A DNA stretch of 64,000 nucleotides from the human T2T-CHM13v2.0 reference genome, Homo sapiens, in the NCBI RefSeq assembly GCF_009914755.1, contig NC_060928.1. One strand, 5' to 3'. Positions 19,170 to 22,218 of this stretch are shown here, in pieces (the first letter of the stretch is position 1; every line of letters starts with the position of its first letter). A program made the position numbers and the translations under genes. The notes below the pieces were generated by a model, which ran no database searches, was not told where the DNA came from, and saw nothing but the letters and a program-made list of their open reading frames with translations.

Positions 19170-20069
19170 TTTTATCTACTTTTGGTCTTTGATGATGGTG
19201 ATGTACAGATGGGTTTTTGGTGTGGATGTCCTTTCTGTTTATTAGTTTTCCTTCTAACAGACAGGACCCTCAGCTGCAGGTCTGTTGGAATACCCTGCCA
19301 TGTGAGGTGTCAGTGTGCCCCTGCTGGGGGGTGCCTGCCAGTCAGGCTGCTCGGTGGTCAGGGGTCAGGCACCCACTTGAGGAGGCAGTCTGCCAGTTCT
19401 CAGATCTCCAGCTGTGTGCTGGGAGAACCACTGCTCTCTTCAAAGCTGTCAGACAGGGACATTTAAGTCTGCAGAGGTTACTACTGTCTTTTTGTTTGTC
19501 TGTGCCCTGCCCCCAGAGGTGGAGCCTACAGAGGCAGGCAGGCCTCCTTGAGCTGTGGTGGGCTCCGCCCAGTTGGAGCTTCCCGGCTGCTTTGTTTACC
19601 TAATCAAGCCTGGGCAATGGCGGGCGCCCCTCCCCCAGCCTCGCTGCCGCCTTGCAGTTTGATCTCAGACTGCTGTGCTAGCAATCAGCGAGACTCCGTG
19701 GGTGTAGGACCCTCCAAGTCAGGTGCGGGATATAATCTTGTGGTGCACCGTTTTTTAAGCCCGTCGGAAAAGCGCAGTATTTGGGTGGGAGTGACCCGAT
19801 TTTCCAGGTGCCGTCCGTCACCCCTTTCTTTGACTCGGAAAGGGAACTCCCTGACCCCTTGCGCTTCCCAAGTGAGGCAATGCCTCGCCCTGCTTTGGCT
19901 CGCGCACTGTGCGCACACCCACTGACCTGCGCCCACTGTCTGGCACTCCCTAGTGAGATGAACCCGGTACCTCAGATGGAAATGCAGAAATCACCCGTCT
20001 TCTGCGTCGCTCACACTGGGAGCTGTTGACCGGAGCTGTTCCTATTCGGCCATCTTGGCTCCTCCCCCC
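19170..20069. promoter_or_regulatory. L1 5' UTR: CpG-rich sense promoter (- strand) and antisense promoter (+ strand), YY1 site intact
   Basis: cggccatcttgg (YY1) at 20047-20058; many retained CpGs over ~19600-20070. Confidence 0.75.
19617..19925 (+). CDS. L1 ORF0 (antisense-promoter ORF), open for 102 aa: MAGAPPPASLPPCSLISDCCASNQRDSVGVGPSKS...
   Basis: ATG in gcaATGG context; N-terminus matches recalled ORF0; donors cag|gtgcgg (19723) and cag|gtgccg (19808) present. Expression not shown. Confidence 0.6.
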   Translation: MAGAPPPASLPPCSLISDCCASNQRDSVGVGPSKSGAGYNLVVHRFLSPSEKRSIWVGVTRFSRCRPSPLSLTRKGNSLTPCASQVRQCLALLWLAHCAHTH

Positions 20070-21725
20070 GCCTTGGGCATTCTTAAGGATCATGATTTGA
20101 CTGTTAGTAATGCCTAATGTTCATGGAGCACTCACTACGGGCCAGGCATCCTGCTAAACTCTTAGTATAGATTATCTTATTTAATCTACTTAATCCTCAC
20201 AACAGCCCAATGAATAAACCATTATTATTATCTACATTCTACACAACTGAGGCAGAGAGAAGGTAAGTCACTTATCACTAACAGGTAACTCCAGCAGCAC
20301 CAGTGGTCTTCCTGTTTCCCAGGGCACAATGTCAGTTCCTTTGTAAGGACCAAATAATCTAAGGGACATGTTCTCAAATTCCCAAATGCACCATTCCACT
20401 ATGTGGCACTGAGTATGTAGTTTGTGCTGAACGAAATGTTGAGACGAACCTTACTTCAAACAGGAATTCAGCAGACCTGTAAGGTGCATCTCAGCTTTGC
20501 ATTTCCTGGCTGTGTGACCTCTTCATACTGCTGGCCCTCTCTGAACCTCCCCTGTAAAACATGTCCCCGGAGGCTGTTGTGAAGAGGAAAGGAGAGCCCG
20601 TGGGTGAAAGTGCACTTAGAAAATGTGAAGCAAATGGAGAATATCGCCAGGGGGCAGCTAGAATGTGGCTGCTGGTCAGATTCAAGTGTGTAGCTGCCCA
20701 GCCAGCGCCCCCAGGTCAACTCATCCTGGATCTTGTTTCCATGCCGAGTGAATGCCCATCTAGAAACTGAGTTGAGACAGCTTTAATCACAACAGTATGT
20801 GGCTCCCCGGGGCAGATTTCGGCTGCTCTGACAACTGTAAAATGGACTTATGCCTGCAAATTAATTTACTAGAAATAATGAACATTTCACAAAATGTTCC
20901 TGGAAGCCCACATAGACAATTAGACCCTACAATGCACTCCGGGCCTAGTGAGGTGGAGGTGAGGCACTGAGATAACCCACCACTCAGCCCCTTGGAGAGT
21001 GATCAGAGACAAGGACCCCAGGACAAATGCAGCACCCTGAAGAATAAGGGTCCACCACTCTTGGGCCTCCATCCCCTTCGCTGTATTTTTTCTATTAAGG
21101 TGAAATTCACATAAGATAAAATTAGCCATTTTAAAGTGAACAATTCAGTAGCATTCAGTACATTCACAATGTTTTATGAGCACCGCCTCTGTCTAGTTCC
21201 AACCCATTTGTTTTCAGCAACCCCAAAGGAAAACCGGTACCCATGAAGGAGGTGCACCCACCCTCCCTTCCCCACCCACAGCCCCTAGCAACTTCCAATC
21301 TGCTTTCTGTCTTGTGGATTTACTCATTGTGGGTATTTCATGTTAGATGTCACCTATGCTAAAATATAGTTGTCCCTGAGATAGGCCCCAGGCACAGAGA
21401 GCTCTAAGTGTCCATTTCTCAAGGTTCTCAACCCCCTGGGGGTTCTGTTCCTCTTCCTCACTCTGGGTTTACCCCACCCGTTCTCCCAGCAAACATGCTC
21501 CACCAATCCACCCCCTCCAGGGGCATGTCTTCCCTTTCGCCAAGTGGACGGCCCTTCCATGCCCCCTCAGGGCATCCCATCTGCATTCCACCCGGTAGTG
21601 TCACGCCAGTGCTTCCTGTGATGCCTGTAACTTGTTCTCAGACAGCTCATGGCTTACTGAGGGTACAAACCACATGGCATAGTGAAAAAAGTACAGGTTT
21701 TACTGTCCAAGAAAGCTAGATTTCT

Positions 21726-22022
21726 GACCGGATGCGATGGCTCACGCCTGTAATCCCAGCACTTTGGGAGGCTGAGGCGGGCAGATCACCTGAGGCCAAG
21801 AGTTCGAGACCAGCCTGGCCAACAAGGTGAAACCCCATCCCTACTAAAAATATCACAATTAGCCAGGCATGGTGGCAGGTGCCTGTAATCTCAGCTGCTC
21901 GGCAGGCTGAGGAAGGAGAATCGCTTGAACTAAGGCACAGAGGAGCCGACATTGCGCCATTATGTGCCAGCCTGGGCAGCAGAGCAAAACTCTATCTCAA
22001 AAAAAAACAAAAAAAAAAAAAA
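21726..22022 (+). mobile_element. Alu ending ~90 bp before the APE exon
   Basis: Alu body and A-tail; TSD-like aagctagatttct / aagctcaatttct. Confidence 0.92.
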
Positions 22023-22114
22023 CAAGCTCAATTTCTCTCCTTGTCCCCTCTCTAAGGGGTGGTGGCCATAAACTGGGATACACAATGATGTTCTCCTTGT
22101 CCTCTCGTTGGCAG

Positions 22115-22218
22115 CTCCAGAAGTATTCCAGGTGTACATGGACAGAGGCCCCGGATACTCGTACCCTGTCGACTGGTGGTCCCTGGGCATCACAGCCTAT
22201 GAGCTGCTGCGGGGCTGG
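22115..22218 (+). CDS. STK32B: STK32B coding exon (likely exon 7): (A)[34 protein letters not shown], kinase subdomains VIII-IX
   Basis: Acceptor cctctcgttggcag|CT (phase 1) and donor TGG|gtaaga (phase 0); 104 bp; APE and DWWSLG kinase motifs; matches recalled STK32B sequence. Confidence 0.96.

What the first reader, a model, noticed from the sequence alone, without database searches (positions are those of the whole stretch)
19617..22218. In-frame L1 ORF0-STK32B fusion potential from an intronic L1 antisense promoter
Seen: the L1 is antisense, so its antisense promoter and ORF0 run on the STK32B strand about 2.4 kb upstream of the APE exon. The ORF0 ATG (19617) is intact. The donor tcag|gtgcgg at 19723 follows 106 nt (35 codons + 1, phase 1), and the exon at 22115 is the only phase-1 acceptor here. 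Splicing gives ...CCC TCC AAG TCA G|CT CCA GAA GTA, i.e. MAGAPPP...GPSKS-APEVFQ..., open through all downstream exons in the window. Established: primate L1 ORF0 uses internal donors to fuse with neighbouring exons, and L1 antisense promoters drive chimeric host transcripts such as L1-MET. Inference: the product would lack the N-lobe and catalytic loop, giving a kinase-dead C-lobe plus KKKKR tail, possibly dominant-negative or scaffold-like and expressed when the L1 is hypomethylated.
Basis: partly seen in the sequence, partly recalled or inferred. Interest (0 to 1): 0.85.

Follow-up and report, generated by a model that had tools for sequence, protein, structure and literature searches.

The report
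Possible L1 ORF0–STK32B fusion, unproven
An old, inactive L1 retrotransposon inside the kinase gene STK32B could on paper splice its small antisense reading frame in frame onto the next exon, but every related L1 copy carries the same module, the frame match is a one-in-three coincidence, and no evidence was found that the fusion is made.

Summary
The sequence observation is correct. The ORF0 ATG is at 19617. The donor CAG|GTGCGG has its GT at 19723, 106 nt after the ATG, so it is phase 1. The STK32B exon at 22115 is the only phase-1 acceptor in the window, and the fused frame stays open through all five exons there.

None of this is special to the locus. The element is a fixed, full-length L1PA2 with broken coding frames. 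Of 30 sampled L1 copies, 30 carry the ATG and 28 the same 106-nt spacing. The phase match is about a one-in-three chance.

A much stronger donor, AAG|GTAAGT at 20263, lies 192 nt past the L1 5' end. It is the donor of an annotated alternative STK32B exon, and using it gives no fusion because ORF0 stops at 19923.

No transcript evidence turned up. The one published EST table I could search links STK32B only to a different L1, and no held paper has both STK32B and ORF0. A published methylation table suggests this L1 is hypomethylated in some cancer lines, so the antisense promoter could fire there.

The product would be a kinase fragment starting at the APE motif, and any function for it is speculation. 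It is an ordinary candidate of a known kind, of low interest.

The parts
14034..20071 (-). Full-length L1PA2 retrotransposon with broken coding frames, antisense to STK32B
   Evidence: Masked block 14024-20071 in the hub table. The 5' end reads ...GGAGCCAAGATGGCCGAATAGG on the - strand, and the poly-A complement starts at about 14034. The longest - strand ORFs are only 394, 349, 281, 235, 160 and 123 aa. The nearest sibling 5'UTRs are 96-97% identical. It is listed as chr4:5438601-5444628:-:L1PA2:REF full-length in STK32B in a supplementary table of PMC10879037 (the match to the window is by coordinate offset, an inference).
19617..19925 (+). ORF0 on the antisense strand of the L1 5'UTR; 102 codons plus stop in this copy
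   Evidence: The ATG lies at L1 positions 453-455 counted from 20071. 24 of 30 sampled copies have the same 102-codon form and 1 of 30 the 71-codon form. There is no Pfam match.
19720..19728 (+). First internal ORF0 splice donor CAG|GTGCGG (GT at 19723), phase 1
   Evidence: The score with a PWM recalled from memory is 4.16 and the U1 duplex energy is -7.2 kcal/mol. The five native STK32B donors in the window span 3.09-7.26 and -5.6 to -10.3. The identical 9-mer is in 21 of 30 copies and the GT in 30 of 30.
19805..19813 (+). Second ORF0 donor-like site CAG|GTGCCG, phase 2, weak
   Evidence: Score below 3 (not listed). Joined to 22115 it is out of frame, with a stop after 92 codons.
20256..20268 (+). 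Annotated 7-nt exon of another STK32B transcript (20256-20262) with its consensus donor AAG|GTAAGT
   Evidence: Hub annotation. This is the best donor in 19450-22114 (8.39, -10.6 kcal/mol). ORF0 has already stopped at 19923, so using this donor gives no fusion. The sequence before 20256 is a poor acceptor, with pyrimidine fraction 0.5.
22115..22218 (+). STK32B exon beginning in phase 1 at the APE motif; the proposed fusion acceptor
   Evidence: Pkinase profile positions 166-193 of 263, E 7.5e-5. Residues 189-213 of STK32A 4fr4, E 5.6e-9.
14024..14033 (.). Left copy of the probable target-site duplication TGATTTGACT
   Evidence: The right copy is at 20093-20102.
20093..20102 (.). Right copy of the probable target-site duplication, 21 nt beyond the L1 5' end

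Best explanation
This is an ordinary fixed L1PA2 lying antisense in an STK32B intron. Its own ORF1 and ORF2 are broken. Like nearly all young primate L1s, it keeps the antisense-promoter/ORF0 module of its 5'UTR on the gene's strand. The ORF0 ATG and the first internal donor, 106 nt later in phase 1, are inherited family features. That the next STK32B exon also starts in phase 1 is a coincidence of about one in three. Where the L1 5' end is methylated, which is inferred to be most differentiated cells, nothing is made. Where it is hypomethylated, the antisense promoter may fire. Its transcripts then choose among the moderate ORF0 donor at 19723, the much stronger flanking donor at 20263, and read-through. 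Only the first choice gives the fusion: 35 ORF0 residues, a Ser, then STK32B from the APE motif to the C-terminus. That product is a catalytically dead fragment lacking the N-lobe, HRD and DFG. It is most likely a rare, unstable by-product, not a functional isoform. Shown here: the sequence anatomy, the family-wide nature of the module, the domain mapping, and the methylation values in a published table. Inferred: promoter activity, donor choice, and the fate of the protein.
For: Anatomy and open frame. Coding frames of the L1 are broken. The module is generic: ATG in 30 of 30 sampled copies, 106-nt spacing in 28 of 30, the same donor 9-mer in 21 of 30, and the genome search's first look found 4904-5591 candidate copies. 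By the recalled PWM, SD1 ranks 4th of the 7 GT sites scoring 3 or more in 19450-22114, and the annotated donor at 20263 ranks 1st. Only SD1 gives an open frame; five other donors tested give stops after 92-156 codons. Five acceptor-like sites lie between the L1 and the exon. Base rate, from a passage of PMC4908685 citing Denli 2015: 57 of about 3200 ORF0 loci had an observed exon fusion. In that paper's EST table STK32B appears once, with EST DA530719 starting in an L1M3 at hg19 chr4:5118862, which is a different L1. No held paper contains both STK32B and ORF0 (0 papers) or both YANK2 and LINE-1 (0 papers). By their titles and abstract openings, the 9 papers with STK32B and LINE-1, the 3 with STK32B and 'chimeric transcript' and the 2 with STK32B and L1PA* are about other things. 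The fragment starts at Pkinase profile position 166 of 263.
Against: The conditions for a real fusion are all present. The ORF0 ATG would be the first AUG for any start in 19400-19616, and it has a good Kozak context. SD1's score lies within the range of the window's native donors, above 1 of 5 and about equal to a second. The acceptor at 22115 is a good constitutive one, with pyrimidine fraction 0.8. The fusion frame would run to the native stop, so it would not be an obvious NMD target. In the PMC10879037 table this L1 has methylation values of 0.199 and 0.016 in two of the cell lines. These are probably 2102Ep and K562 if the columns follow the listed order, but I did not see the header. 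The promoter could therefore be open in those cells. The annotated exon at 20256-20262 shows that some + strand transcript joins this neighbourhood to exon 22115. I could not query any RNA-seq, CAGE or proteomic data, nor Denli's list of 57 fusions, so absence of evidence here is weak.
Confidence: 0.65

Rival explanations
1. Transcripts do arise on the + strand from the L1 antisense promoter or just beside the L1. They splice from the strong flanking donor at 20263 into exon 22115, not from the ORF0 donor. ORF0 (102 codons, stop at 19923) is then only an upstream ORF. At most, an N-terminally truncated STK32B starting at the in-frame ATG at 22138 is made.
For: The hub annotation lists an exon 20256-20262 in another STK32B transcript. 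Its donor AAG|GTAAGT is the best in the interval (8.39 against 4.16 for SD1; U1 duplex -10.6 against -7.2 kcal/mol). The sequence before 20256 is a poor acceptor (pyrimidine fraction 0.5), so the 7-nt exon looks like a clipped first exon rather than an internal micro-exon. It lies only 185 nt past the L1 5' end. The ATG at 22138 is in the native frame.
Against: The start site of that transcript model is unknown, and it may have nothing to do with the L1. An AG does directly precede 20256, so an internal micro-exon is not excluded. An AATAAA at 20213 precedes the donor. A leader of about 650 nt or more with a 102-codon upstream ORF would translate the downstream ATG poorly.
Confidence: 0.2
2. 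One reading: in L1-hypomethylated cells the antisense promoter produces an ORF0-STK32B mRNA spliced 19722->22115. It is translated into a kinase-dead C-lobe plus tail protein.
For: The frame arithmetic is correct. ORF0 exon fusions are a documented class (passages). The L1 appears hypomethylated in two cancer lines. The donor is within the native range.
Against: No junction evidence was found. The base rate of observed fusions is about 2% of ORF0 loci. A stronger donor follows and cryptic acceptors lie in between. The fragment begins at the APE motif and lacks alpha-E, the catalytic loop and the DFG segment, all parts of the C-lobe core, so stable folding is doubtful; that last point is an inference.
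Confidence: 0.12
3. The fusion protein is made and has a selected or disease-relevant function, such as dominant-negative or scaffold action on STK32B partners.
For: None beyond the open frame. The C-terminal basic stretch (KKKKR) and the tail are retained.
Against: The L1 module is unchanged from its siblings, with no locus-specific adaptation visible. There is no literature trace. All the objections to the previous rival also apply.
Confidence: 0.03

Closest known systems
L1 ORF0 and ORF0-exon fusions (Denli et al. 2015, Cell 163:583; paper not held, known here only through passages in PMC4908685 and PMC4859970)
   Same: The ORF lies on the antisense strand of a primate L1 5'UTR, with its ATG at about L1 position 453-455 and a strong Kozak context. 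It has internal splice donors, is co-oriented with a downstream host exon, and has a compatible phase.
   Different: ORF0 is 102 codons in this copy and in 24 of 30 sampled copies, against the 70-71 aa described in those passages. The second donor is weak here. No observed fusion transcript or peptide is known for this locus, and I could not see whether STK32B is among Denli's 57.
L1 antisense-promoter chimeric transcripts (Speek 2001; L1-MET; the 988 EST-supported transcripts of Criscione et al. 2016, PMC4908685)
   Same: A full-length young L1 lies antisense in an intron, so its antisense promoter points at downstream exons of the host gene.
   Different: This L1PA2 is not in Criscione's Table S1. 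The only STK32B row there is EST DA530719 from an L1M3 about 320 kb upstream.
Annotated alternative STK32B exon 20256-20262 (RefSeq on T2T-CHM13, hub table)
   Same: It joins the region just past the L1 5' end to the same acceptor at 22115. It would also give a message lacking the N-terminal half of the kinase.
   Different: It uses the flanking consensus donor at 20263, not the ORF0 donor. It carries no ORF0 coding sequence in frame. Its start site and its relation to the L1 are unknown.

Membership tests
L1 ORF0 locus | ORF on the antisense strand of a primate L1 5'UTR, starting near L1 position 450 | tested here: met
   The ATG at 19617-19619 is at L1 positions 453-455 counted from the 5' end at 20071. 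The element is L1PA2.
L1 ORF0 locus | Intact ATG in a strong Kozak context and an open frame of about 70 codons | tested here: met
   G at -3 and G at +4. The frame is open for 102 codons, longer than the 70-71 aa given. The 102-codon form is in 24 of 30 sampled copies.
L1 ORF0 locus | Two internal splice donors | tested here: inconclusive
   SD1 CAG|GTGCGG is present and of moderate strength (4.16). The second site CAG|GTGCCG scores below 3. The positions of Denli's donors were not seen in any text I could read, so equating these sites with them rests on recall.
L1 ORF0 locus | Transcription from the antisense promoter and translation of ORF0 | not testable with these tools
   No RNA, CAGE, Ribo-seq or MS data are available. 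There is only indirect evidence: low methylation values in two cell lines in a published table.
ORF0-host exon fusion / L1 chimeric transcript | Same strand as a downstream host exon, with compatible phase and an open frame | tested here: met
   phase 1 to phase 1, open through 216 codons in the window.
ORF0-host exon fusion / L1 chimeric transcript | Observed splice junction in RNA | tested here: not met
   It is not in Criscione Table S1. No held paper has both STK32B and ORF0. This is a literature test only; raw RNA data were not searchable, and Denli's table and the supplements of several L1 papers could not be opened.
L1PA2 subfamily | Classification by sequence | tested here: inconclusive
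   It is labelled L1PA2 in the PMC10879037 table. The 96-97% identity to its nearest siblings fits a young primate subfamily. No reference consensus was available to test diagnostic positions.
Protein kinase domain (Pfam PF00069), for the putative product | Complete catalytic domain | tested here: not met
   The first STK32B exon in the fusion starts at profile position 166 of 263, equivalent to PKA residues about 212-235 in alpha-F. Everything before the APE motif is absent.

The most novel reading that the evidence does not exclude
In cells where this hominid-age L1PA2 is demethylated (early embryo, embryonal carcinoma, K562-like leukaemia), its antisense promoter drives an ORF0-STK32B mRNA spliced 19722->22115. 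The mRNA is translated into a protein of about 250 aa: 35 ORF0 residues fused to the STK32B APE-to-C-terminus fragment. That protein would interfere with or re-localise partners of the poorly understood kinase STK32B, giving a lineage-specific, epigenetically switched isoform.
Probability: 0.03. Interest if true: 0.5.

Novelty: new member of a known kind. Interest (0 to 1): 0.2.

Why it matters
If the junction were found, it would add one locus to the short list of L1 ORF0-host fusions and give an epigenetically switched, truncated form of an understudied kinase. As it stands, the value of the check is negative. It shows that an in-frame ORF0-to-exon possibility follows automatically for about a third of co-oriented intronic young L1s, so such findings need transcript evidence before they are ranked highly.

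Tried and rejected
(1) Denli et al. 2015 by DOI: not held, so the list of 57 fusions and the published donor positions were not seen.

A request for PMC10879037 sent in the same batch was answered. I made no further paper-reading runs. The supplements of PMC10619931, PMC12791003 and PMC9288060, the header of the PMC10879037 table, and the contents of its other eight supplementary files (which had no STK32B hit; file 4 was cut when stored) remain unseen.

(4) PMC10506190 supplements contain STK32B: 14 occurrences in file 3 and 1 in file 6. These appear to be expression tables of a gene list. I inferred that the list derives from the EST survey, so I did not count it as independent evidence.

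(5) I considered the 102-codon ORF0 as a private frameshift of this copy. Rejected: 24 of 30 sampled copies share it.

(6) I considered 20256-20262 as an internal micro-exon, because an AG precedes it. This is judged less likely because the pyrimidine tract is poor, but it is not excluded.

(7) Pfam on ORF0 and on exons 2-4 alone gave no matches at E<=1. The pieces are too short for that to mean anything.

(8) The spliced fusion protein was not folded or searched, because it is a joined sequence.
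Full report
**1. The observation**

Reading the window and translating it confirms each coordinate.
- An ATG lies at 19617-19619 in the context gggcaATGg, with G at -3 and G at +4.
- The frame from it is open for 102 codons, with the stop at 19923.
- The site TCAG|GTGCGG has its GT at 19723-19724, so 19617-19722 is 106 nt, or 35 codons plus 1 nt (phase 1).
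- The STK32B exon at 22115 follows ...gttggcag|. It needs one carried-over base to read (A)[21 protein letters not shown].
- The five annotated exons are 104, 117, 126, 132 and 65 nt, so the four later acceptors are all phase 0.
- Joining 19617-19722 to the five exons gives an uninterrupted 216-codon frame.
- No other ATG lies on the + strand in 19400-19616. ORF0's ATG would therefore be the first AUG of any transcript starting there.

**2. What the element is**

The masked block 14024-20071 is a full-length L1 on the - strand. Its 5' end, with the GGAGCCAAGATGGCC motif, is at 20071, and its poly-A complement starts near 14034.

A 10-nt direct repeat, TGATTTGACT, sits at 14024-14033 and 20093-20102. 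It is the probable target-site duplication and leaves 21 extra bases at the L1 5' end.

The L1's own coding capacity is gone. The longest - strand ORFs are 394, 349, 281, 235, 160 and 123 aa.

A supplementary table of Lanciano et al. 2024 (PMC10879037; passages only) lists chr4:5438601-5444628:-:L1PA2:REF, full-length, in STK32B.
- The gene end is at hg19 5502728 and at window 76430 in T2T (hub). Together with a recalled hg19-to-hg38 shift of 1727, this places our element within about 15 bp of that entry.
- It is the only full-length - strand L1 here, so I take them to be the same element. That is an inference.

**3. Is the ORF0 module special to this copy?**

No. The window's own genome is searchable. 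A 622-nt and a 401-nt query from this 5'UTR gave 5591 and 4904 first-look candidates, of which 40 were scored each time. The best non-self matches were 96-97% identical.

I compared the window copy with the 29 best-scoring siblings that were returned as loci. This sample is biased towards the nearest relatives.

| Feature | Copies out of 30 |
|---|---|
| ATG present | 30 |
| 106 nt from ATG to donor (the others 105 and 104) | 28 |
| Donor 9-mer CAGGTGCGG (GT kept in all 30) | 21 |
| 102-codon ORF0 | 24 |
| 71-codon ORF0 | 1 |
| ORF0 cut to 24-38 codons | 5 |

Everything upstream of the splice junction is therefore inherited family sequence. The only locus-specific fact is that the next exon starts in phase 1, and about a third of introns are phase 1 (recalled figure).

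**4. Would the donor be used?**

I scored GT sites with a position weight matrix recalled from memory, so the scores are only a rough ranking. I also computed duplex energy to the 5' end of U1 snRNA.
- SD1 scores 4.16 and -7.2 kcal/mol.
- The five native STK32B donors in the window score 3.09, 7.26, 4.95, 6.44 and 4.20, with duplex energies from -5.6 to -10.3.
- SD1 is therefore a plausible but modest donor.
- Seven sites in 19450-22114 reach a score of 3 or more, and SD1 ranks fourth.
- The best is AAG|GTAAGT at 20263 (8.39, -10.6). This is exactly the donor of the exon 20256-20262 that the hub table lists for another STK32B transcript.
- The second ORF0 donor-like site (GT at 19808) scores below 3.

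Joined to 22115, only SD1 keeps the frame open. The sites at 19808 and 19872 give stops after 92 and 156 codons. The sites at 20263, 20285 and 20959 come after ORF0's own stop at codon 102.

A crude scan finds five acceptor-like sites with good pyrimidine tracts between the L1 and the exon, at 20323, 21282, 21490, 21521 and 21571. There is one AATAAA, at 20213.

The sequence before 20256 is a poor acceptor, with pyrimidine fraction 0.5. The 7-nt exon therefore looks like a clipped first exon, although an AG does precede it.

**5. Evidence for expression**

None could be obtained directly, because no RNA, CAGE or proteomic data are reachable. What the literature gave:
- PMC4908685 (passages and Table S1 part 1) states that 57 of about 3200 ORF0 loci showed an ORF0-exon fusion in Denli et al. 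2015.
- Its EST table has one STK32B row: DA530719, starting in an L1M3 at hg19 chr4:5118862. That is a different and distant L1.
- PMC4859970 (passages) confirms that ORF0 has two donors and can fuse to downstream exons.
- Full-text searches, seen as listings only:

| Terms | Papers found |
|---|---|
| STK32B + ORF0 | 0 |
| YANK2 + LINE-1 | 0 |
| STK32B + LINE-1 | 9 |
| STK32B + L1PA* | 2 |
| STK32B + chimeric transcript | 3 |

- By their titles and abstract openings, none of the 14 listed papers concerns antisense-promoter chimeras. I saw listings only.
Several relevant supplementary tables therefore remain unseen.

On the positive side, the methylation row for this L1PA2 reads 0.199, 0.803, 0.952, 0.930, 0.616, 0.692, 0.016, 0.664, 0.833, 0.899...
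- If the columns follow the cell-line list in that row, the low values are 2102Ep and K562, and the fibroblast lines are above 0.9. I did not see the header.
- That would make antisense-promoter activity possible in a few hypomethylated cell types and unlikely elsewhere.

**6. The product**

Exon 22115 matches Pkinase profile positions 166-193 of 263 (E 7.5e-5, a fragment below the family cut-off). It also matches residues 189-213 of STK32A (4fr4, E 5.6e-9) and about 212-235 of PKA, the alpha-F region.

A fusion would therefore start at the APE motif. Whether such a half C-lobe folds at all is doubtful (inference). A dominant-negative or scaffold role has no support.

**7. Verdict**

- A stronger, already annotated donor competes with the ORF0 donor.
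- No evidence of the junction was found.
- I file it as an unproven candidate member of the known class of L1 ORF0 / antisense-promoter chimeras, of low interest unless junction reads are found.

Noticed in passing
window 14024-14033 and 20093-20102; 20072-20092: There is a probable 10-nt target-site duplication, TGATTTGACT. It leaves 21 non-L1 bases between the L1 5' end and the duplication. These could be a short 5' transduction or extra 5' bases acquired at insertion.
   Followed up: partly
window 56020-61276 versus 14040-19289: A second L1 lies in the same orientation, 93.6% identical over 5.26 kb to the first and lacking a matching 5' part of about 780 nt. The two form 5-kb direct repeats about 42 kb apart that bracket five STK32B coding exons. 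That is a possible substrate for LINE-LINE recombination. Two papers on such rearrangements mention STK32B (PMC4344489, PMC9675761; listings only).
   Followed up: partly
window 20256-20262: An annotated 7-nt exon (AGAGAAG) of another STK32B transcript lies 185 nt past the L1 5' end, with a perfect donor AAG|GTAAGT and a preceding AG. It may be a clipped first exon of a transcript starting in or beside the L1, or a frame-shifting micro-exon. If it is a first exon, the first ATG of the message would be the in-frame one at 22138.
   Followed up: partly
window 19617-19925 and loci L010-L038: ORF0 is 102 codons, not the published 70-71, in this copy and in 23 of its 29 nearest siblings. Only 1 of the 29 has the 71-codon form. 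The longer form seems to be the norm in this L1PA2-like cluster.
   Followed up: partly
window 12099-13728: An annotated 1.6-kb exon of another STK32B transcript ends about 300 nt before the L1's 3' end. Its start has no convincing acceptor, with pyrimidine fraction 0.2. No AATAAA is visible in 13680-13728. The nature of this transcript model is unclear.
   Followed up: no
window 19555-19560: TGTGGT on the + strand, at L1 positions about 512-517, fits a RUNX-type site. From recall, such a site has been reported for the L1 antisense promoter. It is intact in this copy. The motif and its role were not tested.
   Followed up: no
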